Shown: positions 8,071 to 23,064 of the stretch, piece after piece | How the letters are laid out: the number at the start of each line of letters is the position of its first letter | Numbering within the stretch: position 1 is the stretch's first letter | NCBI RefSeq assembly: GCF_000012905.2 | Contig: NC_009007.1 | Location: 90,982-114,045, forward strand | Source of the DNA: Cereibacter sphaeroides 2.4.1 | GTDB taxonomy: Bacteria; Pseudomonadota; Alphaproteobacteria; Rhodobacterales; Rhodobacteraceae | DNA length: 23,064 nt | Reading direction: 5' to 3' | Position numbers and translations under genes: made by a program | The notes under the pieces: generated by a model | The model's database searches: none | Seen by the model: only the letters and a program-made list of their open reading frames with translations | Told to the model about the DNA's origin: nothing

Positions 8071-8082
8071 CCAGAAAAGGAT

Positions 8083-9668: not shown

Positions 9669-10673
9669 ATGCGGCGCATCCTCGTCACCGGCACGGCCGG
9701 CTTCATCGGCTTCCATCTCGCGCGCCTCCTGCTGGCCGAGGGCTTCCGCGTCCATGGCTACGACGGGATGACCGACTATTACGACGTGGCCCTCAAGCGG
9801 CGGCGCCATGCGATGCTGCTGCAGGACCCGAACTTCTCGGCCACGGAGGGCATGCTCGAGGATCAGGCGCTCTTCGACCGCGTGGCCGATGAGTTCGCGC
9901 CCGAGGTGATCGTCCATCTCGCGGCCCAGGCGGGCGTGCGCTATTCGGTCGAGAACCCGCGCGCCTATCTCGATGCGAATGTGATCGGCAGCTTCACCGT
10001 GATGGAGGCCGCGCGGCGGCTGAAGGTGGCCCACCTGATGATGGCCTCCACCTCCTCGGTCTATGGCGCCAACGAGGAGATGCCCTTCCGCGAGACCGAC
10101 AAGGCCGACCGCCAGCTCACGATCTATGCCGCGACCAAGAAGGCCAACGAGAGCATGGGCCACGCCTGGGCGCATGTGCATGGCCTGCCCATCACGATGT
10201 TCCGCTTCTTCACCGTCTACGGCCCCTGGGGGCGGCCCGATCTTGCGCTGTTCCGGTTCGTCGAGGCGATCCTCGAGGACCGGCCGATCGAGATCTACAA
10301 CCACGGCGAGATGTGGCGCGACTTCACCTATGTGGACGATCTCGTCCGCGCGATCCGGCTCCTGATCGAGGCCGTGCCCGGCGGCCCCGAAACGGCGGTC
10401 GAGGAGGACAGCCTCTCGCCCGCAGCCCCCTTCCGCATCGTCAACATCGGCAATTCCGACAAGGTGCGGCTGCTGGATTTCGTGGAGGCGATCGAGGAGA
10501 GCCTCGGGCGGCGCGCGATCCGCAGCTACCTGCCGATGCAGGTGGGCGACGTGCCCGCGACCTGGGCCGACGCGGGGCTTCTCCAGCGCCTGACCGGCTA
10601 CCGCCCGCAGACGGACATCCGCGACGGGATCGCGCAGTTCGTCTCGTGGTATCGCGATTACACGGGGAAGTAG
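9669..10673 (+). CDS. NAD-dependent epimerase/dehydratase, UDP-glucuronate 4-epimerase-like
   Basis: 334 aa from the ATG at 9669, with GAAGGGG about 7 nt upstream. It has the Rossmann motif [19 protein letters not shown], and the catalytic YAATKKANE (YxxxK). Overall it resembles the Cap1J/LpsL-type UDP-GlcA 4-epimerases. The track ORF starting at 9477 is an upstream extension. Confidence 0.85.
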
Positions 10674-10792
10674 TCACACCCGTTTGCCTCGTCGGAAACG
10701 TCGGGTTAGAGAAGAGGCGCCGGGAGATCCGCAGGACTTTCCCGCAGGACAGAAGGCCAGGATGCGGCCCTTCGCAACAAGGAGATGACCGC

Positions 10793-11845
10793 TTGGCACG
10801 ACTGCTTCTCCACATTGGCGCACATAAGACGGCGACCAGCTACATCCAGCGGCGCTTTCATCTCAATCGCGACCTGCTCGCCCGGCACGGCATCCTCTAT
10901 CCCGACATCGGGCCGAACCGGGCCCATCACATTCTCGCCACGCCTTGGATCGACATTCCCGAAATTCCCGAGAGCTATTGGGGCCCCGAAGAAACAGGGT
11001 CGACTGGGCGCACGAGGCAGGACGCTTTCTTCGAGAAATTCACGAAGGACTATGCCTCCCAGAAGGGTACCGTCTTCCTGTCCGCCGAGGTTTTCAGCCG
11101 AGCCCTGCCCCAGCATGTGGACATGGCAGATCTAGCCAAGCGCCTGTCGGATTTCGAAGAGGTGAAGATTGTCTATGTGGTGCGGCACCAGACGGATTAC
11201 ATCCAGTCCATCTGGCTTCAGGTGGCCAAAAACGGCAGGGCGGGAAGATTTGATCCGTTCCTTGCACATGCCCTTCAGAAGCATCTGGCATCTGGGGTAT
11301 GGATCGATCATCATAAGGTGATCGAGAACGTGCTGAGCGGCTTCAGCCGCGACCAGCTCATCCTTTTTGACTATGAGACCATACGCAAACATCCCGAAGG
11401 GGTCATAGGACCTTTTCTCGAGCTTCTGGGATCTCCTCTCCATGTTCATGATCTCGCCGAACTCGACAATCGAGAGGCGAATATCTCTCCAGACCCTCTG
11501 GCAATCTGGATGACACATGCCGCCTTCTTCCCAAACCCGCTCAAGCTCGGCCTTTACCAGAAGCTGAAGGACGCGCTTGACAGGATCAGGGAAAATTACG
11601 GCAAGAAAAAAACCAGCCTCTACACGCGCGCACAGTACGAAGCGGTCATTCAGGCCTCCAGCGAGATGAACATCCCGCTCCGGGGGTGGCTCGAGTCCGA
11701 CAAGGGTGACTCCCCAATCTTCACAACTCCGTCGTCAGATCAGATACTTTTTCGGGACGATCTGACGGAAGCTGATTTGGGTCCTTATCTCCCGGAAGAA
11801 AACCTGCGCATGCGCGAGAAACTCAGGGCTGCCCTCTCGCAATAG
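10793..11845 (+). CDS. Sulfotransferase-like protein (paralog of 18630-19622)
   Basis: 350 aa if started at the TTG at 10793, which has AAGGAG 9 nt upstream. The N-terminus MARLLLHIGAHKTATSYIQ parallels MARVVLHIGTHKTATTTIQ of the other paralog and resembles a 5'-PSB PAPS-binding loop. VVRHQTDYIQSIW resembles a 3'-PB motif. G+C is visibly lower than in the flanks. The 510-aa track ORF is an extension through the epimerase 3' end. Confidence 0.65.
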   Translation: MARLLLHIGAHKTATSYIQRRFHLNRDLLARHGILYPDIGPNRAHHILATPWIDIPEIPESYWGPEETGSTGRTRQDAFFEKFTKDYASQKGTVFLSAEVFSRALPQHVDMADLAKRLSDFEEVKIVYVVRHQTDYIQSIWLQVAKNGRAGRFDPFLAHALQKHLASGVWIDHHKVIENVLSGFSRDQLILFDYETIRKHPEGVIGPFLELLGSPLHVHDLAELDNREANISPDPLAIWMTHAAFFPNPLKLGLYQKLKDALDRIRENYGKKKTSLYTRAQYEAVIQASSEMNIPLRGWLESDKGDSPIFTTPSSDQILFRDDLTEADLGPYLPEENLRMREKLRAALSQ

Positions 11846-11869
11846 AAATAGCGCCTTCGCCCTGCTTTT

Positions 11870-12559
11870 TCATATCAAAACCGTGGCTTCCGGCCCGGCG
11901 AGACGGCTTTCAAGGATTGCAAGGGTGGCATAGGTGGCGTGGCTTGCGAGCCGGATATTCCGACGCGCGAGTTCGCTCATCGTCTTCGTCACCCGCTCGG
12001 GCGGAAGTCGATGCTTATAGGAGTTCTTGGTAACCGGGGCTTCTGCCGCCTGAAGGCCTTGGGATGTCAGAAAATGCGGCAGGTCAGCGCCGATCCGTTC
12101 CATGCGGATCACATGGGTGCGCCCAGAGGGTAGTTCGCTCGCGATCTGCGGCGGCAAATACCATCCCAGATCGAACTGCATGTGGAGCTTGCTTGCCCTC
12201 AGCGCCGCAACGGCTGCCTGTCGTCGCTCCCTCCGGGGATCCGTGAGCGCCTCTGCCAGATCGTTTGCAGTCAGGAAGGCACCGAATATCCGCCGCCAGG
12301 TTTCATTCTTGAGGCGACGCCCGTCCCCGTCGAGGCTCTTGGAGTGAAGATCCCATTCGAAAGCCGACACGAACCGGTCAACCGGATCGCGGGTCAGGAC
12401 GATGAAGATGTCGGAGGGATCGTGCCTCAGAACGGCATCGGCAAGCTGCAGATTGGCGTCATGGACGTGATAGATCTCGAGGCCCGCCACCTGGGGCTGG
12501 AGGGTGCGGATAACGGATTCTCCGGCACATTTGCCGACATGGACGAGATGGTAGGGCAA
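11870..12559 (-). CDS. Sulfotransferase family 2-like protein
   Basis: 229 aa, TTG start at 12557-12559 with GAGAGGA upstream. HVGKCAGESV matches the 5'-PSB motif (h.PK.aGtS.) and LTRDPVDRFVSAF matches the 3'-PB motif (RdP.dR.vS.f) of carbohydrate sulfotransferases of the Sulfotransfer_2 type. Confidence 0.75.
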   Translation of the reverse strand: MPYHLVHVGKCAGESVIRTLQPQVAGLEIYHVHDANLQLADAVLRHDPSDIFIVLTRDPVDRFVSAFEWDLHSKSLDGDGRRLKNETWRRIFGAFLTANDLAEALTDPRRERRQAAVAALRASKLHMQFDLGWYLPPQIASELPSGRTHVIRMERIGADLPHFLTSQGLQAAEAPVTKNSYKHRLPPERVTKTMSELARRNIRLASHATYATLAILESRLAGPEATVLI

Positions 12560-12648
12560 GAAAATCCTCTCTTCTGCAGAAGCAGAGTCACCAGACGGAA
12601 GGTTCTGAGCAACCCGCGGAACGGCGAGTCAGGCCTCGTTCATTGGCA

Positions 12649-13971
12649 TTATCGATCACCATGTTCCAGCCGCTCGATCAGCCGCTCCATGTACCAGGCG
12701 TTGCTGAGTGGATTTACGCCCCAGGACTGGTAGTAGATGTGGGCCACATGGTCGGCAATGCGGGTGCCGTCGCGCAGGACGAGCTGCCGCGCCAGCTCTC
12801 CCCCAGGGCTCAGCTCATCCGCGTAGGTGAAGCTGTCGCGCAGATAGTCGGCATCGTTGTCCATGGCTCCATCCTGGGCATTCGCCACGGTATCCTCTCC
12901 GATCTGTGCCCTCTGGCAGGCTTCACTGACGGATCCTTTTCCCCGGCGGAAGGTCAGGAAGGCCACGTCCGGCCTGCCCTCGCGTTTCAGGCAGGGGTTC
13001 AGATAGCTGTGTGTGTTGACGATGAAGCCCAAGGGCGGCGGATGTCCCGACCGGGGATTGAGGGCGCGTGAGGAGAGCCACAGGTTCCGGACCCGGATCG
13101 CATAGCGGTTCGGATTCTGTTTCCCCATGGAATAAGGGTAGCCGATCACCACCTCGGCGATTTCGAGAGCCCGCCCCGGCAGCTCCTGTTCGGCCTGTGC
13201 CTTGGCCAGAGATCGGACTGCATCGGTAAGATCAGTCGTAGGCTTAGCATCGGGGGTTGGTTCGCTGTAGACGGGGTTTCGGGGAACCCTTCCCACTTGC
13301 CACAGCGGAAGATTGACCAGCCATCGAACCTGGACTGTTTGTTTTTCTTGAGCCGCCTCGATCCGATCGCGCAGTTCGACCATGTAGGCATGCACGATCT
13401 GTCCGGCGCTTCGCACGTCAAAGCCCGCGCCGGCCGTCTCCCGGCAACCTGCTGGCTTGTCCGAATCCGGGAGGAGCCGGAGCATCGGCCCGTCAACGTT
13501 GATCGCCGAGACGGGGATGCCGGCATCGGTCAGCCGTCTCACATTGCGCTCGAACTCGAACGCGGCGGCTGCACGGCCCAAAGCCTCTGGCGAAAGGCTG
13601 GCGTCACAGCGGGCGCCCGACAGGCCCACGCCCGCCTCATAGGTCACCTGCAGCCCCGTTCGCGCGACAATGGCGGCAAGTCCTCCCAGATCTGCATCGG
13701 TCAGATAGGTATCGTCCGGGCGGCGTTTTTCTCCCTTGGCGCCGATCCCCCGGAAGTCGGTGGTCATCAGGAAGGAGGCATTGAGCACGATCCCCTCCAC
13801 CCCCGCGCGGTCGAGCTCCTGCCAGAGCGGCAGGTTCGCGGCGGCGAAGATCTCGCGGTTGTCGAGCGCCCGGGGGCCGGGGCCGTAGATCGCCTCGGGG
13901 GCCGCCTCCGCCCCCGCGCCGAGGGCGAGGGACAGAAGGGCTGTGAGCAGGGTCGTCCGGAGCAGGGTCAT
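12649..13971 (-). CDS. Secreted hypothetical protein (Sec signal peptide; no recognisable domain)
   Basis: 440 aa from the ATG at 13969-13971, with GGGAGG 5 nt upstream. The N-terminus MTLLRTTLLTALLSLALGAGAEAAP is a typical signal peptide. I cannot assign the remainder to a family. Stop is TAA at 12649-12651. Confidence 0.7.
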   Translation of the reverse strand: MTLLRTTLLTALLSLALGAGAEAAPEAIYGPGPRALDNREIFAAANLPLWQELDRAGVEGIVLNASFLMTTDFRGIGAKGEKRRPDDTYLTDADLGGLAAIVARTGLQVTYEAGVGLSGARCDASLSPEALGRAAAAFEFERNVRRLTDAGIPVSAINVDGPMLRLLPDSDKPAGCRETAGAGFDVRSAGQIVHAYMVELRDRIEAAQEKQTVQVRWLVNLPLWQVGRVPRNPVYSEPTPDAKPTTDLTDAVRSLAKAQAEQELPGRALEIAEVVIGYPYSMGKQNPNRYAIRVRNLWLSSRALNPRSGHPPPLGFIVNTHSYLNPCLKREGRPDVAFLTFRRGKGSVSEACQRAQIGEDTVANAQDGAMDNDADYLRDSFTYADELSPGGELARQLVLRDGTRIADHVAHIYYQSWGVNPLSNAWYMERLIERLEHGDR

Positions 13972-14086
13972 GGGAGCCTCCCGTGGCGGTTTGCCAGAGG
14001 ATGCCGCATTTCCCGGGACGGGCAACCCCCGGCGCCGCGCTTGGGCGCCGGGCGGCGCTCCTCTGCCCGGGGCCGGCCGGGCGGCC

Positions 14087-15028
14087 TCAGAACAGGAAGT
14101 CGTCGCGGGTGAGCATCTCGGAGGAGATCCCCTCGAGCGTGATCCGGTTCGCGCCCACCTCGATCACGACATGGCCGTTCACCTCCGACAGATGGTTCGC
14201 CATCAGATCGCCGAAGCCGGTGATGGCCCCCACCCCGCGCAGGTCGATCCACTCGCCTTCCATGTCGGGCGAGAAGTCGCGGATCCGGTCCCGGCCGAAA
14301 TTGCCGGCGAAGACGAACCGGTCCGCCCCGCCGCCGCCGATCAGGATGTCGTTGCCCGCCCCGCCCACCAGCACGTCGCGCTCCCACTGGCCGTCGAGCC
14401 GGTCGTTGCCCGCGCCGCCGAGCAGCAGGTCGTTGCCGGTGCCGCCGAAGAGCGCATCGGCCCCCTCCATGCCGCGCAGCACATCCGCCCCGCCCCGCCC
14501 CTCGAGCCGGTCGTTGCCGAGCCCGCCCGACAGCGTCTCGGCCAGACGGCTGCCCAGAAGCACATCGGCCCGCGCCGAGCCTATGACGATCTCGATCGAT
14601 TTCACCACATAGGGGCCGAAGGGCTCGGGCCGGAAGTCGTAGCGCCCCGCGGCCAGATCCACCCGGAAGCCGAGCCGCAGGTTGGTGTAGCCGCTCAGGT
14701 CCAGCGTGTCGGTCCCCGCCCCGCCATAGACATCGTCGGCGAGATCCACGCCGCGGATGCGGAACGTGTCGTTGCCGGCCTGGCCGTAGCAGGCGTCATG
14801 GTAGAAGCCGCCGTCCAGAAGGTCGTCGCCATCGCCGCCATAGAGCCGGTCCACGCCGTCGCGGCCGTTGATCGTGTCGTTGCCGTCCCCGCCGACCAGC
14901 CGGTCGGCCCCGGGCCCGCCGTTCAGCAGGTCGTTGCCGGGGGTGCCGGCCGGGGTCTGGGCGAGCGCGCTCTGGGCCAGGGGAGCGGACAGCGGGGAGA
15001 GGCTGGGGAAAGGAGAGACTTCAGGCAT
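14087..15028 (-). CDS. RTX-type calcium-binding repeat protein (probable type I secretion substrate)
   Basis: 313 aa from the ATG at 15026-15028. It has multiple GGxGxDxUx nonapeptides (GGPGADRLVGGDGNDTINGRDGVDRLYGGDGDDLLDGG; GGLGNDRLEGRGGADVLRGMEGADALFGGTGNDLLLGGAGNDRLDG; GGAGNDILIGGGGADRFVF) and no Sec signal. Confidence 0.85.
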   Translation of the reverse strand: MPEVSPFPSLSPLSAPLAQSALAQTPAGTPGNDLLNGGPGADRLVGGDGNDTINGRDGVDRLYGGDGDDLLDGGFYHDACYGQAGNDTFRIRGVDLADDVYGGAGTDTLDLSGYTNLRLGFRVDLAAGRYDFRPEPFGPYVVKSIEIVIGSARADVLLGSRLAETLSGGLGNDRLEGRGGADVLRGMEGADALFGGTGNDLLLGGAGNDRLDGQWERDVLVGGAGNDILIGGGGADRFVFAGNFGRDRIRDFSPDMEGEWIDLRGVGAITGFGDLMANHLSEVNGHVVIEVGANRITLEGISSEMLTRDDFLF

Positions 15029-15209
15029 TGTTTCCAAAATTCCTTCAATAGGGCGCGCCAAACGGGATTTTCTATGTCTGGTCTGAAATCGCGCGTCTTC
15101 CGGAAGAAATCCACGCCGTCCCAACCTTCTGGAAAGAAGGCCCGCCGTCAATCTGCTTGGAAGGACAGGGGCGCCGGGTCCCGGCACCCGCCGGGGCGGG
15201 CCGGAAACC

Positions 15210-16511
15210 TCAATACCAGCGGCCCATCGAGATCAGCTCGACCTGCGCGGCAAGGCGCGTGTTCGTGGCGCTGAAGACCGAGACGCCGACGCTGGTCGTC
15301 GTCCGCCCGGTCAGCCGCGGGCTGAGCGCCTGGGCTCCGTTCGAGACCACGCTCGAGACCGTGACGAGGCCCGTGGCGGTGGAGAAGGCGGCGGGAAAGG
15401 GGGCCACCACATCGGCGGAGGCCGAGGTGGTCACCTTCTGCCAGCAGCTCTGCGTCCCGTCCTGATGGCGGATGTAGCGGCCGTTGGCGTTGCCCGCGCT
15501 CTCGACGATCCCGCCCGCGACCCAGGGCGACCAGGCGCCCTCGCCGCGGGCGCGCGAGAAGAGGATGCCCGGCATGAGGCCCCCGCCCCCCGCCTCCACG
15601 AGAAAGAGCTGCACCTCGCCCGCCCCGCGGCTCTGGTGAAGGAGAAGGCCCGCCTGCACGCCCGCAGGGCCGCCGCTGCTGCCCTGCGCGCTGTCGTAGC
15701 CGTAAAAGCCCGGCGCGAGCGCGCCGTCCACCGCCCCGGCATTGCCGACGAGCGGCGCCGGCGCCCCCAGCCCGAAGGCCCCCACCGTCAAGAGCCGGCC
15801 CGGGGTCGCATCGGCGGCCGAGGCCTGCACCGCGCTTCCGGTGAGGCTGCCCGTCACCACCGCCCCCTGCGGCAGCGCCACCCGCCCGCTCGCCCGGTCG
15901 GCGCTGAGCGCGGTGCGGAAGGAAGTGCCGTCCGGGCTGACCTTCAGCGCGAAGTCGTCGCTGCCCGCAAGCCCGATTTCGGCCCGGCCCGACCAGTCGG
16001 ACTGGAACAGGAGGCTCGCCGTCTCGGCCTCCGCGGCCTTGTTGACCTTGATCCGGTGGCTCGCACCCGCATGGGTGAAGAGCGTGGCGGGGCCCGCCAC
16101 CGCGAGGCGGTTGGTGGCATCGGCCGAGGTGGCGATGCCCAGCGAGGGAAATTCCGGCAGAAGGCCGATCAGCGTGCGCCAGCCCTGGGCGGTGAAGACG
16201 AGCCCCGCTCCCTCGGCCAGCACGAAGGTCTGCCAGCCCGGCTGCGGGGCGAGGAAACGCCAGACCGCCGCCTCCGCGTCCCAGACCGCAAAGGCCTCCT
16301 CCCGCCCTGCCCAGGCCCCTTCGGCGCCCGGGCCCACCAGATGCCGCGCCCCCGCGGCCGGGGCGGCGGGCGGCGCGGAGCGGTCGCGGTCGAGCACGGC
16401 GGGCTGGACCAGCACATCGAGCCGCTGCAGCGCCTCGTTGTGGGTCACATGTTTCTGCGCCTGGGAAGGCAGGATGTAGGGAAGCGACAGGATCGGCGAG
16501 GCGTCGGACAT
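15210..16511 (-). CDS. DUF2793-type, phage-tail-fibre-like protein
   Basis: 433 aa from the ATG at 16509-16511. A GTG at 16529 would add 6 aa. The N-terminus MSDASPILSLPYILPSQAQKHVTHNEALQRLDVLVQ and the internal ..NKAAEAETASLLFQSDWSGRAEIGLAGSDDFALKVSPDG.. match, from memory, the DUF2793 family found in alphaproteobacterial prophage, tail-fibre and GTA-associated proteins. The alternative-frame 488-aa ORF is Arg/Gly-rich junk. Confidence 0.75.
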   Translation of the reverse strand: MSDASPILSLPYILPSQAQKHVTHNEALQRLDVLVQPAVLDRDRSAPPAAPAAGARHLVGPGAEGAWAGREEAFAVWDAEAAVWRFLAPQPGWQTFVLAEGAGLVFTAQGWRTLIGLLPEFPSLGIATSADATNRLAVAGPATLFTHAGASHRIKVNKAAEAETASLLFQSDWSGRAEIGLAGSDDFALKVSPDGTSFRTALSADRASGRVALPQGAVVTGSLTGSAVQASAADATPGRLLTVGAFGLGAPAPLVGNAGAVDGALAPGFYGYDSAQGSSGGPAGVQAGLLLHQSRGAGEVQLFLVEAGGGGLMPGILFSRARGEGAWSPWVAGGIVESAGNANGRYIRHQDGTQSCWQKVTTSASADVVAPFPAAFSTATGLVTVSSVVSNGAQALSPRLTGRTTTSVGVSVFSATNTRLAAQVELISMGRWY

Positions 16512-16647
16512 GAAAAACCCCTTCGGCACAGGATCGGCCGCCGCAGGCTAGGCGGAGAGGGTGAACGGCCGGTGGCCGGAGCGTGCGCTGCCTCCTCCGC
16601 CGGGCGCGGGACACTTCCGCACGGCCCGCCTGCAGGGCGCATCCGGC

Positions 16648-16789
16648 TCGGGGGCCGCCGGACGCGCGGGATCTCCGCCGTCACGCCAGCCGCAGTCTGC
16701 CCGCCGGACGGTATCCGGTTCGGGGCCGCCGGCGTGGGGGCTCCTCGAGGATCGGCGGCAGGCGGGGCTCGACAGGTCGGGGCCGCCGG
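16648..16789. repeat. Three dispersed direct copies of TCGGGGCCGCCGG in a divergent intergenic region
   Basis: Copies lie at 16648-16661 (with one extra G), 16720-16732 and 16777-16789. Copies 1 and 2 also share the upstream ATCCGG(c/t), and copies 1 and 3 share the downstream ACGCG. Start-to-start spacing is 72 and 57 bp. Confidence 0.5.
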
Positions 16790-17113
16790 ACGCGGGAGGT
16801 CTGCCCTGCCCTTCTCCGGCCTGCCGCGGCGACTCCGACGGGCGCTTCGGGCACCGCAACCGGGACGGGGACGGCGCGCCTCCTCCCCCGGAAAAGCCAT
16901 TCCCTTTGAAAGCGGAGTCGAATTTCATTGTTTTCCGGCCCCACTGCCTGCCGAAAGGAACAGGCGCCCCCTGCCCCGGCTTGAAGAAGCCTCGTCGCCG
17001 TCCATAGTCGGAGGACCACCCTCGCCGCCCGCCCTCGCAGCCAGGTCCGGCAGGGCGCTCCCGCGCCCGATCCGGCCGCCCGCCCTGACCCAGCCAGAGG
17101 TTCACCGCGCTTC

Positions 17114-18472
17114 ATGACGTCCGACCAGACCCCTGCCCGCCCAGCCCTTCTCGTCCTCGGAATGCACCGCTCCGGCACCTCGGCCCTTGCGGGCGTGCTC
17201 GGCCGGGCGGGCTTCGCGCTGCCGCAGGAGTTGATGCCTCCGACCGAGCACAATCCGCGGGGCTATTTCGAATCCACCCGGATCTTCCGGCTGAACGATG
17301 CGCTTCTGGCCGCGGCGGGCTCTTCCTGGGACGACTGGCGGGCCTTCGATGCGGACTGGCACCTCTCGCCCGCGGCCGAGCCGTTCCATGCCGAGGCGCA
17401 GGAGGCGCTCGCGGCGGAATTTCCCGGCACGGCGCCGATCGTGCTCAAGGATCCGCGGATCTGCCGGCTGCTGCCCTTCTGGACCCGCGCGCTGACCGAG
17501 GCGGGCTTCCGGCCGCTGGCCGTCTGCACCCACCGCCCCGCGCGCGAGGTGGGCGCCTCGCTCGCGCGCCGCAACGGCTGGCCCGAGGCGCGCGGCCTCC
17601 TGCTCTGGCTGCGCCATGTGCTCGATGCCGAGGCCCAGACCCGCGGCAGGCCCCGGGTCTTCGTCTCCTACGACGGGCTGCTCGCGGACTGGCGGGGAAC
17701 GCTCGGGCGCATCGCGGAGGCCTTCGATCTGGCGCTCCCGCGCCCGCTCGACGAGGCCGCGCCCGAGATCGAGGCCTTCCTCTCGGCCGACCTGCGCCAT
17801 GCGCCGGAGACGCCCGCGGCCGCGGCGGGCCTGTCCGACTGGATCGCCCGCCCCGAGGAGATCCTCGACCGGAAGGCCGCCGGAGAGGACCGCCCCGGAG
17901 ACCGCGAGACGCTCGACCGGATCGCGGCCGAAGTCGCGGCCGCGGCCCCCCTGCTGGCAGACCTCTCCGGAGCGGTGGAGGAACAGGGCGCCCGGCTGGA
18001 GCGCGAGGCGGCCCTGCGCCACGAGGCCCAGACCATCCTGCAGCAGGAGAGGCAGCGGCTCGACGACCTGACGGCCGAGCTGCAGCTCCAGCTCCATCAC
18101 AGGACCCTCCATGTCGCGGAACTGGAGCGTCATGCGGGGGAGCTGGCCCAGCAGCTCCGGCAGAAGACGCAGCACGCGGCCGAACTCGAGCGCCATGCGG
18201 AAGAGCTCGCCCAGCAGCTCCGGCAGCAGAGGTCGCACGCGGCCGAGCTCGAGCGCCATGCCGGAGAGCTCTCGGCCCTGACCCACGAGCTGCGCCAGCA
18301 GGTGCATCACAAGGGCCGGCATGTCCAGGAACTGGAAGCCCACTCGGGAGAGCTCGAAGCGCGGCTTCTCGCTCTCGAGGCCGAGCATGCGGCTCTTCTG
18401 GGCAGCACCTCCTGGAAGGTCACGCACCCCCTGCGCCGCATGTCGCTGGCCTTGCGTCGTCCGAAGACGTGA
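17114..18472 (+). CDS. Sulfotransferase domain fused to a C-terminal tandem-repeat coiled coil
   Basis: 452 aa. LLVLGMHRSGTSALAGVL is a 5'-PSB-like loop and THRPAREVGASLARRNGW is 3'-PB-like. From about residue 285 the sequence is heptad-rich. It contains 21-aa repeats (HVAELERHAGELAQQLRQKTQ / HAAELERHAEELAQQLRQQRS / HAAELERHAGELS... / HVQELEAHSGELEARLLALEAE) and ends with ..STSWKVTHPLRRMSLALRR. Confidence 0.8.
   Translation: MTSDQTPARPALLVLGMHRSGTSALAGVLGRAGFALPQELMPPTEHNPRGYFESTRIFRLNDALLAAAGSSWDDWRAFDADWHLSPAAEPFHAEAQEALAAEFPGTAPIVLKDPRICRLLPFWTRALTEAGFRPLAVCTHRPAREVGASLARRNGWPEARGLLLWLRHVLDAEAQTRGRPRVFVSYDGLLADWRGTLGRIAEAFDLALPRPLDEAAPEIEAFLSADLRHAPETPAAAAGLSDWIARPEEILDRKAAGEDRPGDRETLDRIAAEVAAAAPLLADLSGAVEEQGARLEREAALRHEAQTILQQERQRLDDLTAELQLQLHHRTLHVAELERHAGELAQQLRQKTQHAAELERHAEELAQQLRQQRSHAAELERHAGELSALTHELRQQVHHKGRHVQELEAHSGELEARLLALEAEHAALLGSTSWKVTHPLRRMSLALRRPKT
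18110..18382 (+). repeat. In-frame 63-bp tandem repeats (coiled-coil coding), two well conserved and two degenerate
   Basis: Units start at 18110, 18173, 18236 and 18320. Units 1 and 2 differ at about 13 of 63 positions by hand count. Unit 3 matches unit 2 closely over its first 33 or so nt and then diverges. All units are in frame with the CDS. Confidence 0.7.
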
Positions 18473-18629
18473 GGAGCCCTCCCGGCATGGCAGACCGCCT
18501 TTCTCCCGGAGGGCCTGCCCGCCTCAGAGAGGCTGCCTGACCGCACCGGCCCCCTTATTGCAACCTCTGCCGCGCCTGCTGTCACGCTCCTGCGGCTCCA
18601 CGGATCCCCGCAGCCCGCGACCTCGGGCA

Positions 18630-19622
18630 TCAGCCCCGGCGGGCGCGATAGATCCAGCGGCTGCACCGGATCCAGAACGAGGTGTTGAGCCCATCGCGAT
18701 AGACACGATTCTCCTCGGGATCGCTTTCCGAGATGCGGAACTCCGGCTGCACCGCCTTCCGGCGTTCCGACAGACGGCCGTTACGCTCCTTCGCATATGC
18801 GAAGAGCTGCTGGAACTCCGGGTATGTCCACAGGCAGGACTTGGCCTCTTCGCCATATTCGATGCGAAAGGCACCTGTCGCACAGTCGATCACCCAAGGG
18901 GCCGCTTGGTCCGGTTCCGTGATGACACAGGCCGCAAAGGTCGGCAGCGCCAGCGGCGAAACGTTTGACAGCCCGTCATGGACAACCTGAAGCGAAGAGG
19001 CTGAGAGACCGCAGCCAAGCGTGTCCAGCATGGCACCCACGACCCCGTCCCGATGTCGGCGGCAGGCATCAAAATCGAGGAAAGTGATCTCTTCGGGCGC
19101 GAAGGCAGAAAGCAGATGATCGTAGAGCAGGTTGTAGTCGATCCACAGCCCATCCGTCATGTCGCGTTTGAGAACGGAATCGACCATGGTGGAGGGCTTG
19201 GGCGGTTGCCGCTCCTTGGAAGCCTGCAGATAGATCGACTGCATGAATTGCCATTGCTCACGCAACACGCAAACCACGGACACGCTTTCGAAATCCGAGA
19301 GCAGTTCGCGCACGGCCCGGAAGTCCACCTGAGCACCGGGCTTGCCGCGTGAGAACTCTTCGGAACTGAGAACCAGCGTGCCCGGAACATGAGCGTAGTC
19401 ACGCGTGAGCTGTTTCAGCGTCGCGATACTGCCCTGAGGCAGGGCATACATGTCGGGCAGCTTGTTCCATTCCATCACGAGCCCATGGTGGCCCGCGACG
19501 CGGCTGAGGCGCGGATAGATCACCCCATGCTGCCGCAGAAGGTCCGCATTATGCGCGAACATGTCCTGGATCGTGGTGGTTGCCGTCTTGTGCGTTCCGA
19601 TGTGCAGAACGACTCTTGCCAT
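18630..19622 (-). CDS. Sulfotransferase-like protein (paralog of 10793-11845)
   Basis: 330 aa, ATG at 19620-19622 immediately after the upstream gene's stop (TGAATG). It has MARVVLHIGTHKTATTTIQ and CVLREQWQFMQSIYLQ motifs. It is collinear with the 10793 gene (..DYA..GT..LS.E.FSR.., LSDFE.V, G.WID), at roughly one third identity by eye. G+C is visibly lower. Confidence 0.65.
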   Translation of the reverse strand: MARVVLHIGTHKTATTTIQDMFAHNADLLRQHGVIYPRLSRVAGHHGLVMEWNKLPDMYALPQGSIATLKQLTRDYAHVPGTLVLSSEEFSRGKPGAQVDFRAVRELLSDFESVSVVCVLREQWQFMQSIYLQASKERQPPKPSTMVDSVLKRDMTDGLWIDYNLLYDHLLSAFAPEEITFLDFDACRRHRDGVVGAMLDTLGCGLSASSLQVVHDGLSNVSPLALPTFAACVITEPDQAAPWVIDCATGAFRIEYGEEAKSCLWTYPEFQQLFAYAKERNGRLSERRKAVQPEFRISESDPEENRVYRDGLNTSFWIRCSRWIYRARRG

Positions 19623-21878
19623 TCAGTGTGACCTCATGCCGTGCGCGGGCGGCTCCGCAAGATGGGTGGCGGGCTCCGCCGCTCCCAGATGCTGCCGCAT
19701 CACCTGGAGATTGAGATCGCCGAAGGTCAGGCTCGGCTCGAGGACGGCCTTCTCGGCCCATTCGTTCCAGGCATTGACGAAAAGCTCGCGGCGATAGGAG
19801 GCGGGCACGCGGCGCTCGAGCGCGCCCGCGAGCCAGACGTTGAAGGTGGCGGGATTGGCGCCGTAGGCCACATGGCCCGCCGCCCCGCGCCGGGCCGTAT
19901 TGTCCCAGCCCGGCATGACGCCTGCGATCGTGGCCTTGGGCAGGGTGCGGACATAGGTCTCCGACAGGGCCCGGCGCGCGACGGCGGCGTAATCGTAGAT
20001 CAGCCCCGAGAAGGCGGGGTTCATCGCGGCGGGCATCCGGTTGCCGTCGGGACCGCCGAAGAGATAGTCCGGCCCCTTCACCAGCCCGTGCGGCGGCATC
20101 TCGACCCAGAAGTCGAAGAGCCCCTCGGGCACCGGATGGGCGCCCTCGACATGGAACCGCACCGCGCCGAGCTCGACCTCGCCGATCCCCGCCCGCCGCC
20201 AGCCCTCGCGCAGCCGCGCCACGCTGGCCTGCGGATCGGGCATGTCCTCGGGACGGTAGATTACGAAGCGCGGACGGCGGCCGTCGGGGCGGGCGTAGCG
20301 CGGATCGCGCAGATAGGGGGCGGTGTCGGCGGCGAGCTTCTCCTCGAAGCCCGCGCCATAGGTCTGTTCGAGGAGCACGGTGCCCGACAGCCCGTCCCAG
20401 TTGCGCCGCCAGCTCTCGTTGGCCCAGCAGAGATAGAAGGGGAAGTCGATCTCGGGCCGCGCCATCAGCCGGTCGATCGGCGCCTCGAGGATGCGGCGGC
20501 CGTCGAACCAGTAGTGATAGACGCAGAAGGCGTCGATCCCGGCCTCGCGGGCCATCGCCGCCTGCTCGCCCATCACCTCGGTGGCGCGCAGGTCGTAAAA
20601 GCCCAGATCGGCGGGCAGCATCGGCTGGAGATGGCCCTCGAACATCGAGGGCGCCTTCACCACCGAGCGCCATTCGGTGAAGCCCTTGCCCCACCAGGCG
20701 TCGTTCTCGGGCACGGGGTGGAACTGGGGCAGGTAGAAGGCGCTGACGAAGGCGGGCTTCGCGGGCGCCGCCGCCGCGGCCGGGCGGAGCTCGCTCGTCT
20801 GCAGGACCTTCTGGCCCGCCCGCGCGGTCAGATAGCCCAGCACCCGCTCGATCGCATGGGCGAGGGTGCCGTCGACCTGACCCTCCTCGAGATCGAAATC
20901 CTCGAGCCGGAGCTGCAGGCTGCGCAGAAGCCCCAGCACCAGCGGCTTCACCCAGTAGATCGAGCCCGCCGGGAAGGAGAGCGCCTCGCGGTCGAGCGGG
21001 ATCTCGATGCGCTGAAGCAGATGGCGCGTGGCCTCGACGTTCGAGCCCCACCATTGGGTGCCGGTGTAATGCTGGCCGTCGGCCACCCAGAAGCCCGCCT
21101 CGGGCGCCTCGACGAAGGCCTCGAGCTTCTCCTCGAGCCCGGTCTCGGGCAGGATCCCCTCGATCAGATGCTTCCGCCAGAGATCGCCGTCCTGCCGGTG
21201 GGGCGATTTCTTCGTGTGGAACTTGCAGACCGCCCGGTAGCCGTCGAAGGCGCCCGCATTGAGCAGGGTGACGAAGGGCAGGATGTCGCGACCGCGGTTC
21301 GGCATCGGGGTCACGAAGGCGCCGGGGAAGTCGGCGCGGATCTCCTCGGCCAGCGCGTCGGTCTCCTCGCCGCGATAGGTCAGCGTGACATAGAGGTCGA
21401 ACGGGATGCGGAGCCGCCGCAGACGGGCGGCGAACTCGGGCCAGAGATCGGGATAATAGACATGCACCGCCACCGCATAGGGCGCGGTCTGGCGCCCGTG
21501 CTCGAAACGGACCTGCGGCATGCCGCGGGCGGGCAGCGCCACGACCTCGGGCAGCTCCTTGGTCAGGCGCTGCTCGGCATGGCCCACGCGGACATAATGC
21601 AGGAAGGGCGGCACGCCGGCCTCCGCCACGTCGGGGTGATAGCGCAGATAGGCCTGGGGCGAGAAGTCCGGGTTCGGCCGGTAGCCCAGCCGCTCGCCAT
21701 AGGCGATGTAGTGTTTCTCGGGATATTTCAGGTAGATCGGGTTCAACCCGGGGTAGGCCCCCCGATAATAGGTCCGGTCGAAAAGCCCGCTTTTCCGGAT
21801 GGCGCGGAGATAGCGCCGCTCCTCGCCCGTCAGGACCAGAATCCGGGCAAACCGGCGCAGACGGTGAAATTTCAGCAT
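19623..21878 (-). CDS. Two-domain glycosyltransferase: N-terminal RgpF (rhamnan synthesis F)-like plus C-terminal WbsX/GH99-like
   Basis: 751 aa from the ATG at 21876-21878, with GGAG 6 nt upstream; a TTG at 21890 would add 4 aa. The N-terminal half has AVHVYYPDLWPEFAARLRRLRIPFDLYVTLTY, MPNRGRDILPF and KFHTKKS (RgpF-like). The C-terminal half has FYLPQFHPVPENDAWWGKGFTEWRSV, LPADLGFYDL, FCVYHYWFDGRRILE and YLCWANESWRRNWDG (WbsX-like). Confidence 0.85.
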   Translation of the reverse strand: MLKFHRLRRFARILVLTGEERRYLRAIRKSGLFDRTYYRGAYPGLNPIYLKYPEKHYIAYGERLGYRPNPDFSPQAYLRYHPDVAEAGVPPFLHYVRVGHAEQRLTKELPEVVALPARGMPQVRFEHGRQTAPYAVAVHVYYPDLWPEFAARLRRLRIPFDLYVTLTYRGEETDALAEEIRADFPGAFVTPMPNRGRDILPFVTLLNAGAFDGYRAVCKFHTKKSPHRQDGDLWRKHLIEGILPETGLEEKLEAFVEAPEAGFWVADGQHYTGTQWWGSNVEATRHLLQRIEIPLDREALSFPAGSIYWVKPLVLGLLRSLQLRLEDFDLEEGQVDGTLAHAIERVLGYLTARAGQKVLQTSELRPAAAAAPAKPAFVSAFYLPQFHPVPENDAWWGKGFTEWRSVVKAPSMFEGHLQPMLPADLGFYDLRATEVMGEQAAMAREAGIDAFCVYHYWFDGRRILEAPIDRLMARPEIDFPFYLCWANESWRRNWDGLSGTVLLEQTYGAGFEEKLAADTAPYLRDPRYARPDGRRPRFVIYRPEDMPDPQASVARLREGWRRAGIGEVELGAVRFHVEGAHPVPEGLFDFWVEMPPHGLVKGPDYLFGGPDGNRMPAAMNPAFSGLIYDYAAVARRALSETYVRTLPKATIAGVMPGWDNTARRGAAGHVAYGANPATFNVWLAGALERRVPASYRRELFVNAWNEWAEKAVLEPSLTFGDLNLQVMRQHLGAAEPATHLAEPPAHGMRSH

Positions 21879-21941
21879 GTCCGTCTCCAAATGAATGGCC
21901 GATACCTAACAACTACCTGAGGTAGACGCAAAGGGACGCGG

Positions 21942-22742
21942 TCAGGCACCTTCATTCAGAAGCATCCGGTGATGACGGTTCAGCAACAGCATGCCGAAGA
22001 AGAGACAGACAAGGCTTACGGAATAGGCATAGAGCGGGTCGACCAGCCGGGCGTCGTAGGTCGCGAAGAAGCCCTGACGCATCTTCGCGATCACATGGGT
22101 GAGCGGATTGTAGGACAGAAGCGTGCGGAAGGGCTCGGGCACGGTCTCCATCAGGAAGAAGATCCCCGACAGCAGGAACATCGGCCGGTTGAGGATGGCC
22201 CAGACCCGTTCCCAGACCGGCGCCACGCTGAAGAGATAGCAGTTGAGCGTGCCCACGCCCATCGCCAGCGCCGCCGCCATGCTGAAGGCCTCGAGGATCG
22301 CGGGCAGATCGAGGCTCACGTTCAGATCGTAGAAGGCGATGATGCCCACCATCACGATCACGAAGACCACGAGGTTCGTCAGCGTGTTGAGCAGGAACCG
22401 GCTCAGGATCGCATCGAAGAAGCTCACCGCCGGATAGGCGAGAAGCGGGCGCGAGAAGCGGATCGCCTGGCCGATCTTCGCGGTGAGCGCGGTGTAATAC
22501 ATGAAGGGCAGATAGCCCGTGGCATAGAAGAGCGGGAAGTTGTTGCCCAAGGGCGGCGAGCGCATCAGGAAGGAGAAGACCACCGTCAGCAGCGTCAGCG
22601 CCGCCACCGGCTCGGCCACCGCCCAGAGATAGCCGCCCGGAGAGCGGCCGTAGCTCGTGGCCATCTCGCGCAGCATGAGCGAGAGGACCGACCGGCCCCA
22701 GAGGAAGCGCCGCCCTGCAAGAAGACCCGAGAGCCCCGTCAT
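21942..22742 (-). CDS. ABC-2 type polysaccharide export permease (KpsM/Wzm family)
   Basis: 266 aa from the ATG at 22740-22742. An alternative ATG at 22815-22817 adds a 25-aa Gly/Ala-rich extension. It has six hydrophobic segments and sequence typical of capsule/O-antigen ABC-2 permeases (..LMLREMATSYGRSPGGYLWAVAEP.., ..SYNPLTHVI..). Confidence 0.85.
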   Translation of the reverse strand: MTGLSGLLAGRRFLWGRSVLSLMLREMATSYGRSPGGYLWAVAEPVAALTLLTVVFSFLMRSPPLGNNFPLFYATGYLPFMYYTALTAKIGQAIRFSRPLLAYPAVSFFDAILSRFLLNTLTNLVVFVIVMVGIIAFYDLNVSLDLPAILEAFSMAAALAMGVGTLNCYLFSVAPVWERVWAILNRPMFLLSGIFFLMETVPEPFRTLLSYNPLTHVIAKMRQGFFATYDARLVDPLYAYSVSLVCLFFGMLLLNRHHRMLLNEGA

Positions 22743-23064
22743 TCCGCCTGCCCCAGTCGCCTGTCCCCGTCCGTCTCCGGCCCCGCCACCGGAGGGGGCG
22801 GCGGCCGGAGCGGCCATAACATCACTTGCAACCAGCGGTGTAAAGCTGGCATACCTTGGGCGATCAGCCCCGAGCCCGCGGACCCGCCATAGTGAACGCT
22901 TCCAAGCCGTCGGCCCCGCAAGCGCCTCTTGCCGACCCGCGATCTTCCCCGAATTCCGAGCCCGCGGAGCCTCCGCGCGGGGCCGGATCCGCGGCCCCCG
23001 GCCCGGTCGCCCGCCCCCGTCTGGGCGGCGCGGGCCCGGCCGGCGCCCGCGTCCGCGATCCCGC

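What the first reader, a model, noticed from the sequence alone, without database searches (positions are those of the whole stretch)
17114..18472. Sulfotransferase fused to a repeat-built coiled coil: possible WbdD-like chain terminator or molecular ruler using sulfate as the cap
The protein has an N-terminal PAPS-type sulfotransferase domain. About 150 residues of heptad-rich coiled coil follow, partly made of 21-aa (63-bp) tandem repeats (18110-18382), and then a basic C-terminal tail (STSWKVTHPLRRMSLALRR). In the ABC-transporter-dependent O-antigen pathway of E. coli O9a, WbdD caps the non-reducing end, and its C-terminal coiled coil sets chain length as a molecular ruler. The architecture and the KpsM-type export context here suggest an analogous terminator that caps with sulfate. 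I do not know of such a system having been described. The 63-bp repeats would also allow ruler length, and hence glycan length, to change by repeat gain or loss.
Basis: inference. Interest (0 to 1): 0.65.

Follow-up and report, generated by a model that had tools for sequence, protein, structure and literature searches.

The report
Stalk-mounted sulfotransferase for polysaccharide assembly
A plasmid gene of the model bacterium Cereibacter (Rhodobacter) sphaeroides 2.4.1 encodes a sulfate-adding enzyme on a roughly 25-nm rigid protein stalk, built like the known "cap-and-ruler" enzymes that set the length of bacterial surface sugar chains, so it may be a sulfate version of that mechanism and can be tested in a tractable organism.

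Summary
ORF 17114-18472 (+), 452 aa, has three parts:
- a PAPS-type sulfotransferase domain, aa 1-262;
- one uninterrupted 168-residue heptad helix, aa 263-430, containing four copies of a 21-aa unit;
- a basic C-terminal motif, STSWKVTHPLRR.

The window is 100% identical to plasmid pA of C. sphaeroides 2.4.1. The gene is DQL45_RS20675 / WP_011836244.1.

The protein belongs to a large family: at least 584 loci in species-representative genomes. The enzyme domain and the SxSWRxTxPLR motif are conserved. The stalk varies from 78 to 482 residues.

About 40% of complete family members carry polymerising glycosyltransferase modules fused after the motif. The window's neighbouring RgpF/WbsX glycosyltransferase aligns with those fused parts. 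A subset of members sits directly beside Wzt transporters that carry the cap-binding Wzt_C module.

This supports a WbdD/WbbB-like "terminator on a ruler" reading with sulfate as the cap. Three points weaken it here:
- the transporter is KpsMT-type and has no cap-binding module;
- five strains show no repeat copy-number change;
- terminal versus internal sulfation cannot be decided from sequence.

Verdict: a probable new chemical variant of a known mechanism.

The parts
17114..18472 (+). Whole gene: sulfotransferase, coiled-coil stalk and C-terminal motif (452 aa; DQL45_RS20675 / WP_011836244.1 of C. sphaeroides 2.4.1 plasmid pA)
   Evidence: ORF and translation. 100% identity to NZ_CP030273.1 and its annotation.
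17114..17899 (+). PAPS-type sulfotransferase domain, aa 1-262. The 5'-PSB loop GMHRSGTSA is at nt 17159-17185. The 3'-PB motif R141...S149 is at nt 17534-17560.
   Evidence: Pfam PF13469 at E=2.5e-6. AF2 model plus Foldseek matches to sulfotransferases. Invariant motifs aligned to known PSB and PB motifs. dN/dS of 0.07-0.16 among strains.
17900..18403 (+). Coiled-coil stalk, aa 263-430: 168 residues, about 25 nm if fully helical
   Evidence: Single helix in the AF2 model. One heptad register throughout. Matches to SMC, Rad50 and crescentin rods. Hypervariable across the family. dN/dS of 0.34-0.40.
18110..18355 (+). Four copies of the 21-aa (63-bp) unit H(V/A)AELERHAGEL..., at aa 333, 354, 375 and 403
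   Evidence: TRF period 63, 2.9 copies, score 170. Protein-level copies and spacings. Direct repeats.
18404..18469 (+). Conserved basic amphipathic C-terminal motif STSWKVTHPLRRMSLALRRPKT (SxSWRxTxPLR module)
   Evidence: Invariant S, S, W, P and R. A motif profile finds 9,571 representative proteins, mostly glycosyltransferases and methyltransferases. In fused relatives it lies between the stalk and the GT modules.
19623..21890 (-). RgpF + WbsX glycosyltransferase, the likely polymerase partner. Its N-terminus (aa 26-108) carries two degenerate 'FDxxxY...PxxHYxxxGxxEGRxP' repeats.
   Evidence: Pfam WbsX at 3.5e-112 and RgpF at 1.5e-34. It aligns with the post-motif parts of fused sulfotransferase-stalk-GT proteins.
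18630..19622 (-). 330-aa P-loop sulfotransferase-like protein without a coiled coil, convergent with the target gene
   Evidence: Weak Sulfotransfer_1 match at E=0.002. The homologue on plasmid pB lies next to the paralogous stalk enzyme.
21942..22817 (-). KpsM-type ABC-2 permease of the exporter. The KpsE-like protein and the 273-aa ATPase lie just beyond the window end.
   Evidence: Pfam ABC2_membrane and NCBIfam KpsM. Plasmid annotation. ATPase without Wzt_C.
9669..12559 (.). NAD-dependent sugar epimerase (9669-10673 +) and two further sulfotransferase-like genes (10793-11845 +, 11870-12559 -) of the same polysaccharide region
   Evidence: Pfam. Annotation. GC dip to 56-61% at 11-13 kb.

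Best explanation
The gene encodes a PAPS-dependent polysaccharide sulfotransferase. It sits at the membrane-distal end of a rigid, probably parallel, homo-oligomeric coiled-coil stalk of about 168 residues, roughly 25 nm.

The short basic amphipathic C-terminal motif (SxSWKxTxPLR) anchors the stalk at the cytoplasmic face of the membrane. There it docks to the RgpF/WbsX glycosyltransferase that polymerises a lipid-linked, probably rhamnose-containing, glycan. That glycan is exported by the plasmid's KpsMT(E)-type ABC transporter.

Most likely the enzyme sulfates the non-reducing terminal sugar once the growing chain reaches the catalytic head. This blocks further elongation, so the stalk acts as a molecular ruler in the manner of WbdD (stand-alone) and WbbB (fused).

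Shown here: the sulfotransferase fold and motifs, the continuous heptad stalk, the conservation of both ends with a variable stalk, the fusion of relatives to polymerase modules, and the adjacency of some relatives to Wzt-CBM transporters.

Inferred: oligomeric state, membrane docking, interaction with the glycosyltransferase, terminal position of the sulfate, and control of chain length.
For: Enzyme.

Stalk.

Family anatomy:
- 1,413 homologues at E<=1e-3.
- At least 584 loci in species-representative genomes.
- The stalk spans 78-482 residues between conserved anchors.
- Stalk lengths show a 3.5-residue periodicity. Rayleigh R=0.36, p=8e-7 for all lengths, and p=0.0015 for unique lengths. There is no signal at periods 3.0, 3.6, 4.0 or 7. 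This is what a continuous coiled coil would give if the two ends must keep a fixed angular relation.

Rosetta-stone evidence:
- 30 of 74 complete family ORFs continue after the motif. Among those 30, Pfam finds GT2 in 14, GT1 in 14, RgpF in 6 and WbsX in 3; WsaF was seen in one scanned individually.
- The window's glycosyltransferase aligns with those parts, always C-terminal to the motif. Examples: L018 at 2e-27, L010 at 4e-74 and L056 at 1e-72.

Context:
- An RgpF/WbsX homologue lies within 10 kb in 40 of 82 loci.
- A Wzt with Wzt_C lies near the family member in L044, L045, L059, L061, L066, L071 and L075, plus a weak case in L077.
- In L071 the whole five-gene cluster is wzm, wzt(CBM), the stalk sulfotransferase and glycosyltransferases. 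The sulfotransferase is therefore the only candidate capping enzyme.

Plasmid pA also carries rfbABCD, kdsA, further sulfotransferases and a sulfate importer.

Within the species the stalk length is invariant at 452 aa in 5 strains, although most amino-acid changes fall in the stalk.

Published principle: an extended coiled coil with the terminating enzyme at its distal end marks this assembly strategy, and polymerase modules may be fused or separate (PMC11231755; PMC11127046).
Against: - The ABC ATPase of this replicon (273 aa) has no Wzt_C module and the exporter is KpsMT(E)-like.
- One characterised ABC-transporter capsule pathway, H. influenzae type b, is stated to have no chain-terminating residue (PMC11231755).
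- The coiled coil plus SWR motif is also found on polymerising glycosyltransferases and other enzymes. The chassis is therefore not specific to terminators.
- The plasmid encodes at least five other sulfotransferase-like proteins, so sulfate is probably also placed internally. A terminal sulfate may not be chemically distinctive.
- No polysaccharide structure is available for this strain.
- The length-periodicity test is not corrected for relatedness of the sequences.
Confidence: 0.5

Rival explanations
1. Tethered decorating enzyme. The protein belongs to the same membrane-associated assembly complex, but it sulfates internal residues of the growing chain. The stalk is a scaffold or spacer that positions the head along the nascent polymer. 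It does not terminate chains or set their length.
For: - KpsT-type ATPase without a cap-binding module on this replicon.
- The SWR-motif chassis is shared by non-terminating glycosyltransferases.
- Many other sulfotransferases on the plasmid point to a heavily sulfated polymer.
- E. coli group 3 capsule loci, which are KpsMT-dependent, also carry putative methyltransferases with coiled coils of variable length and no proven terminator role (PMC13171606).
Against: [quoted passage not shown]
- Some relatives sit beside Wzt-CBM transporters as the only modifying enzyme.
- A 12-70 nm spacer is hard to rationalise for an enzyme that must act all along a chain.
Confidence: 0.3
2. The stalk serves only for oligomerisation or membrane localisation, and the acceptor is not the polymer. 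It could be a glycolipid primer or linker, lipopolysaccharide core, or a protein such as the neighbouring RTX or DUF2793 proteins.
For: - The closest solved folds include tyrosylprotein sulfotransferases.
- The gene is divergent from a DUF2793 / RTX / secreted-protein block.
- M. loti KpsS is described as a glycolipid or polysaccharide fucosyl sulfotransferase (PMC11625862).
Against: - Relatives are repeatedly fused to glycosyltransferase modules and co-located with RgpF/WbsX and glycan ABC transporters.
- The DUF2793 / RTX block is not conserved next to family members elsewhere: 5 and 1 of 82 loci for DUF2793 and the 458-aa protein.
Confidence: 0.12
3. The repeat-built stalk is a contingency locus. 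Slippage of the 63-bp repeats changes stalk length, and hence glycan length, between strains.
For: Tandem 63-bp units at 80% identity. Stalk length differs widely between genera.
Against: - Five strains at 92.5-100% identity all have 1,359 bp, and a sixth 95%-identical protein from a metagenomic assembly is also 452 aa.
- The units have diverged to about 80%, which disfavours slippage.
- Variation between strains arises by substitution and by recombination of the 3' end.
Confidence: 0.05

Closest known systems
WbdD of E. coli O9a / K. pneumoniae O3 (stand-alone methyltransferase-kinase terminator with a coiled-coil molecular ruler)
   Same: - A stand-alone protein with the modifying enzyme at the N-terminal, membrane-distal end.
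- A long coiled coil.
- A membrane-proximal C-terminal region that recruits a separately encoded polymerase.
- An ABC-transporter-dependent pathway (PMC11231755; PMC3482155).
   Different: - The catalytic domain is unrelated: PAPS sulfotransferase instead of SAM methyltransferase plus kinase.
- The putative cap is sulfate rather than methyl-phosphate.
- The transporter here is KpsMT-type without the cap-binding Wzt_C module.
- No homology to WbdD was detected.
WbbB of K. pneumoniae O12 / Raoultella terrigena, and ORF6 of K. pneumoniae O7 (terminator, coiled coil and polymerase GT modules in one polypeptide)
   Same: Many relatives of the window protein have exactly this layout: sulfotransferase, coiled coil, then GT2, GT1, RgpF or WbsX modules. 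The window's gene pair looks like a split version of it.
   Different: The terminator chemistry differs: beta-Kdo transferase or methyltransferase-kinase in the known cases. In the window the polymerase is a separate gene on the opposite strand.
Roseobacter RepA-I 'biofilm plasmids' (Michael et al. 2016, PMC5030684)
   Same: A Rhodobacterales plasmid with a replication initiator RepA, a rhamnose operon rfbABCD, and a KpsMT-like polysaccharide exporter whose ATPase lacks a C-terminal extension.
   Different: That paper does not mention sulfotransferases (0 occurrences). C. sphaeroides pA additionally carries a battery of sulfotransferases and a sulfate importer.
Characterised bacterial carbohydrate sulfotransferases (NodH, M. 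loti KpsS, mycobacterial Stf0/Stf1)
   Same: PAPS-type fold and PSB/PB motifs. The Pfam family Sulfotransfer_3 is shared with NodH (PMC11625862). There is weak profile similarity to Stf1, PDB 2zq5.
   Different: From my own recollection, which I did not check, none of these has a long coiled-coil stalk or the SWR docking motif. I could not obtain the KpsS sequence to test whether it belongs to this family.

Membership tests
PAPS-dependent sulfotransferases (Pfam Sulfotransfer_3, PF13469) | Score above the family's curated threshold | tested here: met
   28.3 bits against a cut-off of 27, E=2.5e-6, covering profile positions 1-214 of 216. This is marginal for the window protein. Relatives score up to 39 bits.
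PAPS-dependent sulfotransferases (Pfam Sulfotransfer_3, PF13469) | 5'-phosphosulfate-binding loop and 3'-phosphate-binding motif | tested here: met
   GMHRSGTSA (aa 16-24) and R141...S149 are invariant, or nearly so at T22, across relatives. They align to GLVRTGTTA of 2zq5 and to IVRNPKDTAVSM of cytosolic sulfotransferases.
PAPS-dependent sulfotransferases (Pfam Sulfotransfer_3, PF13469) | Sulfotransferase alpha/beta fold | tested here: met
   The AF2 domain has block-mean pLDDT mostly 86-97. The 11 best Foldseek PDB hits are all sulfotransferases, probability 1.00, E from 3.9e-6 to 4e-4.
PAPS-dependent sulfotransferases (Pfam Sulfotransfer_3, PF13469) | PAPS-dependent sulfate transfer to an acceptor | not testable with these tools
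   Needs an enzyme assay.
Coiled-coil terminator / molecular-ruler systems of ABC-transporter-dependent glycan assembly (WbdD/WbbB type) | Modifying enzyme at the distal end of an extended coiled coil | tested here: met
   Sulfotransferase at aa 1-262, then a single 168-residue heptad helix. The feature is as defined in PMC11231755.
Coiled-coil terminator / molecular-ruler systems of ABC-transporter-dependent glycan assembly (WbdD/WbbB type) | Membrane-proximal end fused to, or recruiting, the polymerising glycosyltransferases | tested here: inconclusive
   Fusion is seen in 30 of 74 complete relatives. The window's RgpF/WbsX protein aligns with the fused parts. Physical interaction in this organism has not been shown.
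Coiled-coil terminator / molecular-ruler systems of ABC-transporter-dependent glycan assembly (WbdD/WbbB type) | ABC transporter for a glycan completed in the cytoplasm, encoded in the locus | tested here: met
   A KpsM-type permease lies in the window. A KpsE-like protein and an ABC ATPase lie just beyond it on pA.
Coiled-coil terminator / molecular-ruler systems of ABC-transporter-dependent glycan assembly (WbdD/WbbB type) | [quoted passage not shown] | tested here: not met
   The 273-aa ATPase, scanned in a 95%-identical relative and annotated at the same size on pA, has ABC_tran only and no Wzt_C. The feature is met in related loci L044, L045, L059, L061, L066, L071 and L075.
Coiled-coil terminator / molecular-ruler systems of ABC-transporter-dependent glycan assembly (WbdD/WbbB type) | Modification is on the non-reducing terminal residue and stops elongation | not testable with these tools
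   No glycan structure is available. Needs NMR or MS and in vitro polymerisation.
Coiled-coil terminator / molecular-ruler systems of ABC-transporter-dependent glycan assembly (WbdD/WbbB type) | Chain length scales with coiled-coil length | not testable with these tools
   Only indirect evidence: the stalk spans 78-482 aa across the family and is invariant within the species.
WbdD protein family (by homology) | Homologous methyltransferase and kinase domains | tested here: not met
   No methyltransferase or kinase domain was found. PDB profile searches return no WbdD. The protein is an analogue, not a member.
KpsMT (group 2/3 capsule-like) export systems | KpsM permease, short KpsT ATPase and KpsE-type adaptor | tested here: met
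   KpsM by NCBIfam, 80 bits, below the equivalog cut-off. A 273-aa ATPase. A KpsE-like 'sugar transporter', judged from its sequence and not supported by Pfam. KpsC, KpsS and KpsD are not annotated on pA; the chromosomes were not examined.

The most novel reading that the evidence does not exclude
Sulfation is a previously uncharacterised bacterial chain-terminating chemistry. A widespread family, with at least 584 loci in species-representative genomes from Alpha- and Gammaproteobacteria to cyanobacteria, Desulfobacterota and Planctomycetota, would cap ABC-transporter-exported glycans with sulfate. These enzymes would measure chain length with stalks of 12-70 nm. They would plug into polymerases through a universal SxSWRxTxPLR docking module that thousands of glycosyltransferases and methyltransferases share. 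C. sphaeroides 2.4.1 carries two paralogous rulers of different length, on plasmids pA and pB, and would be a ready genetic model.
Probability: 0.35. Interest if true: 0.75.

Novelty: new variant of a known kind. Interest (0 to 1): 0.58.

Why it matters
Chain length of surface polysaccharides governs serum resistance, phage and gene-transfer-agent adsorption, and biofilm behaviour.

In the papers I could read, the capping chemistries described as characterised are a terminal methyl phosphate and Kdo. A sulfate cap would add a new chemistry. It would also extend the ruler principle to KpsMT-type exporters and to environmentally dominant Rhodobacterales, whose plasmids of this type decide between attached and free-swimming life (PMC5030684).

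The shared SxSWRxTxPLR motif, found in 9,571 representative proteins, may be a general assembly or docking element of these machines. No solved structure contains it.

The gene sits in a classic model organism with good genetics, so the hypothesis can be tested directly.

Tried and rejected
1. Searching the 5.8-billion-protein set with a profile of the C-terminal motif returned only 23 short fragments and no architectures. The exhaustive representative search worked instead.

2. Sequence searches of the PDB with the full-length profile gave only coiled-coil proteins. With the enzyme-domain profile they gave only weak sulfotransferase hits at E>=0.03. Fold comparison was needed.

3. No solved structure contains the SWR motif.

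4. The promoter and terminator consensus scans around the gene found nothing. They are uninformative in a window that is about 70% GC.

5. Literature. The 2019 census of terminators and the 2020 O-antigen review are not held. Five full-text searches found no paper that links a sulfotransferase to a coiled-coil terminator. No paper was found on a sulfated polysaccharide of R. sphaeroides.

6. Repeat slippage as a source of strain variation is rejected: the gene is the same length in five strains.

7. A protein-sulfating role suggested by the TPST fold matches is considered unlikely, given the fusions to glycosyltransferases.

8. Oligomeric state (dimer or trimer) could not be addressed. Only monomer prediction is available.
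Full report
**What is there.**

The finding's coordinates hold one ATG-to-TGA ORF, 17114-18472 (+), 452 aa. The window is about 70% G+C.

A megablast against plasmid records shows that window 9000-23064 is 100% identical to plasmid pA (124,316 bp) of Cereibacter (Rhodobacter) sphaeroides 2.4.1, NZ_CP030273.1. The ORF is annotated there as DQL45_RS20675 / WP_011836244.1, 'sulfotransferase'.

**Enzyme domain.**

- Pfam Sulfotransfer_3 matches aa 10-208 just above threshold: 28.3 bits against 27, E=2.5e-6.
- An AlphaFold2 model built on 40 relatives has mean pLDDT 86.9.
- Its 11 best Foldseek matches among solved structures are all PAPS-dependent sulfotransferases: OLS-ST 4gox at 3.9e-6, human TPST1/2 and a tick TPST, and CurM-ST. 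3-OST and StaL follow lower in the list.
- Across relatives the invariant residues include GMHRSG(T)S (aa 16-23), KDPR (112-115), R141, S149, W165, R177 and R181.
- A profile search of PDB sequences gives only weak hits (E>=0.03), but apart from two unrelated weak hits they are sulfotransferases.
- Those alignments place GMHRSGTSA on the 5'-phosphosulfate loop and R141...S149 on the classical RNPxDxxVS 3'-phosphate motif.
- The domain is under strong purifying selection among strains, with dN/dS of 0.07-0.16.

I accept it as a PAPS-type sulfotransferase. Activity is untested.

**Stalk and repeats.**

The model predicts one uninterrupted helix from aa 263 to 430, followed by a short helix at 432-447.

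A single heptad register fits the whole 168 residues. The d positions are 79% hydrophobic and almost all Leu. The a positions are 62% hydrophobic. From aa 312 to 430 the best register never changes.

TRF reports a 63-bp period at 18089-18271, 2.9 copies, 80% matches. At protein level the unit H(V/A)AELERHAGEL recurs at aa 333, 354, 375 and 403. The spacings are 21, 21 and 28 residues, so every spacing preserves the heptad phase.

The stalk is unusually rich in histidine (15 of 168 residues), mostly at one core-flanking position.

**C-terminal motif.**

The tail STSWKVTHPLRRMSLALRRPKT has net charge +6 and a helical hydrophobic moment of 0.49. S431, S433, W434, P439 and R441 are invariant in 40 relatives.

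A profile of this motif finds 9,571 representative proteins at E<=1e-3 in a library of 1.84 billion representative proteins.

Of the 74 best hits of at least 250 aa, 69 are not sulfotransferases. Their Pfam domains are GT2, GT1/GT4, RgpF, WsaF, several SAM methyltransferase families, a glycerophosphotransferase and PIG-L. The motif is often present in two or three copies.

The motif is therefore a general module of glycan-assembly enzymes. No PDB entry contains it.

**The family.**

The protein has 1,413 homologues at E<=1e-3 among the candidates scored. It has at least 584 loci in one-genome-per-species collections. These are mainly Alpha- and Gammaproteobacteria, with some cyanobacteria, Desulfonema, Planctomycetota and others.

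The enzyme domain and the motif are conserved, while the stalk is hypervariable in sequence and length. Between the D268-equivalent and the motif it spans 78 to 482 residues, with a median of 217 and 165 here.

These spans show a 3.5-residue periodicity: Rayleigh R=0.36, p=8e-7, and p=0.0015 when each length is counted once. There is no signal at periods 3.0, 3.6, 4.0 or 7. This is what one expects if the helix is a continuous coiled coil and the angular relation of head and foot must be kept. The test is exploratory and not corrected for phylogeny.

**Fusions (Rosetta stone).**

Of 74 complete family ORFs from the genome scan, 30 continue for 450-1,350 residues after the stalk.

Among these 30, GT2 occurs in 14, GT1 in 14, RgpF in 6 and WbsX in 3. 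Individual examples are listed.

The consensus order is: sulfotransferase, stalk, SxSWRxTAPxR, 'FDxxxY...PxxHYxxxGxxEGRxP' repeats, then glycosyltransferases.

The window's neighbouring glycosyltransferase (19623-21890, minus strand; RgpF + WbsX) begins with two degenerate copies of those repeats (aa 26-108). By blastp it aligns with the post-motif parts of the fused proteins:
- aa 37-362 with L018 739-1086 (2e-27);
- aa 376-755 with L010 509-871 (4e-74);
- aa 382-724 with L056 1337-1669 (1e-72).

The window's two genes therefore look like a split version of single polypeptides found elsewhere. This is the strongest computational argument that they work together.

**Transporters.**

An RgpF/WbsX homologue lies within 10 kb in 40 of 82 loci and an ABC ATPase in 34.

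In L044, L045, L059, L061, L066, L071 and L075, with a weak case in L077, that ATPase is a Wzt carrying the Wzt_C carbohydrate-binding module. In six of these loci it lies 3-1,090 bp from the family member.

In Sulfuricella sp. T08 (L071) the whole cluster is wzm, wzt(CBM), the stalk sulfotransferase, GT2-GT4 and GT4-GT1, flanked by unrelated genes. There the sulfotransferase occupies the position of WbdD and is the only candidate capping enzyme. Desulfonema magnum (L044) and L045 are similar.

**This replicon.**

On pA the exporter is a KpsM-type permease (in the window), a KpsE-like protein and a 273-aa ATPase. That ATPase has no Wzt_C.

The same plasmid carries:
- ParAB/RepA;
- a GT2;
- rfbCBDA, for dTDP-rhamnose;
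- kdsA;
- two further small sulfotransferases;
- a sulfate ABC importer.

Together with the three other sulfotransferase-like genes in the window, the plasmid looks dedicated to a sulfated, probably rhamnose-containing surface polymer.

It resembles the RepA-I 'biofilm plasmids' of roseobacters. Those share a rhamnose operon and a KpsMT-like exporter lacking the C-terminal extension (PMC5030684).

Strain 2.4.1 has a paralogue of 488 aa on plasmid pB, next to a GT4-GT1-RgpF protein.

**Strain survey.**

Orthologues in ATCC 17029, IL106, KD131 and HJ (92.5-99.1% nucleotide identity) are all exactly 1,359 bp. The 63-bp repeats have therefore not changed in number.

Amino-acid changes concentrate in the stalk: 17-27 of 21-38 in the three more divergent strains (IL106, KD131, HJ), against 1-5 in the enzyme domain. 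Stalk dN/dS is 0.34-0.40.

KD131 and HJ carry a different allele from about aa 405 to the end, with tail dS of 0.84. They are also the strains whose annotation shows a methyltransferase gene immediately downstream; a near-identical metagenomic relative of that allele (L002) carries that gene plus a 334-aa gene. This suggests a recombination breakpoint inside the stalk.

**Comparison with what is known.**

[quoted passage not shown] The terminating enzyme sits at its distal end. The polymerase modules may be fused (O12 WbbB, O7 ORF6) or recruited by the membrane-proximal region (WbdD with WbdA) (PMC11231755). Such systems typically pair with a Wzt whose CBM binds the cap (PMC11127046).

The family studied here reproduces all of these layouts with a sulfotransferase as the head.

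The window protein itself matches the stand-alone WbdD layout. It is not a WbdD homologue, and its transporter lacks the CBM. One ABC-dependent capsule pathway (H. influenzae b) is stated to have no terminating residue. On the other hand, E. coli group 3 capsule loci do contain putative methyltransferases with coiled coils of variable length (PMC13171606).

**Verdict.**

The most likely mechanism is a sulfate-capping terminator on a roughly 25-nm ruler docked to the RgpF/WbsX polymerase (confidence about 0.5). The main rival is a tethered internal decorating enzyme (about 0.3).

The idea that repeat slippage tunes length between strains is not supported.

I found no open-access description of a sulfotransferase terminator. 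The 2019 bioinformatic census that 'predicted new chemistries' (wording from my recollection of its abstract) could not be read. I therefore rate this a new variant of a known kind rather than categorically new.

Noticed in passing
window 774-7193 (-): A complete second ATP synthase operon lies on the plasmid, in the order beta, epsilon, subunit I, a, c, b, alpha, gamma. No delta subunit is annotated, and from my own knowledge this order resembles the N-type ATPase gene order. An ISNCY transposase lies next to it, just outside the window.
   Followed up: partly
window 19623-21890 (-), protein aa 26-108: The RgpF/WbsX glycosyltransferase starts with two degenerate copies of an 'FDxxxY...PxxHYxxxGxxEGRxP' repeat. 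The same module replaces the SWR motif at the C-terminus of about 12% of the sulfotransferase-stalk family. In fused relatives it lies between the SWR motif and the GT domains. It may be a docking partner or an alternative docking module.
   Followed up: partly
window 17900-18403 (+): The stalk contains 15 histidines in 168 residues, mostly at one heptad position flanking the core. This could make the stalk pH- or metal-sensitive.
   Followed up: no
window 18320-18472 (+), compared with L087, L088 and L002: Strains KD131 and HJ carry a divergent allele of the last roughly 48 codons, including the docking motif (SASWRVTGPLRRVSEALRRPKS). Their annotation shows a methyltransferase gene immediately downstream, and the metagenomic relative L002 with the same allele carries that gene plus a 334-aa gene, both absent from 2.4.1. 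This implies a recombination breakpoint inside the stalk.
   Followed up: partly
window 11000-13000: G+C drops to 56-61%, against about 72% in the flanks, over two sulfotransferase-like genes (10793-11845 +, 11870-12559 -). The second has no counterpart in the 95%-related locus L002. This suggests a recently acquired cassette.
   Followed up: no
window 12649-16529 (-): A block of three genes sits between the polysaccharide genes: a 458-aa protein with an N-terminal hydrophobic, signal-peptide-like stretch and no Pfam match, an RTX calcium-binding protein with 27-bp repeats at 14327-14448 and 14876-14941, and a DUF2793 protein. From my own knowledge, which I did not check, DUF2793 occurs in phage and gene-transfer-agent tail-fibre proteins. 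The block's link to the glycan is unknown.
   Followed up: no
window 8027-8069: Two tandem copies of a 21-bp palindromic unit, CGTGGCCAAAATTGGCCACGG, lie inside a roughly 1.8-kb stretch (7194-8989) without annotated genes.
   Followed up: no
L001 (plasmid pB, NZ_CP030274.1) 10001-11467: Strain 2.4.1 has a second stalk sulfotransferase of 488 aa, 46-47% identical. It is co-directional with a GT4-GT1-RgpF protein and a 333-aa sulfotransferase-like protein, and no transporter lies within 10 kb. The same cell therefore has two stalks of different length.
   Followed up: partly
L084 (plasmid pA record 52574-59704, outside the window): A peptidase-domain ABC transporter, a HlyD adaptor and a methyltransferase are followed by kdsA and two small sulfotransferases. 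From my own recollection, which I did not check, this arrangement resembles the RaxST/RaxAB sulfated-peptide secretion system. A sulfate importer (cysPTWA-like) lies about 12 kb away.
   Followed up: no
family-wide (P0001-P0120, L003-L082): Stalk lengths across the family cluster at multiples of 3.5 residues (Rayleigh p=8e-7, and p=0.0015 on unique lengths). This suggests a conserved angular relation between head and foot. The test is not corrected for phylogeny.
   Followed up: partly
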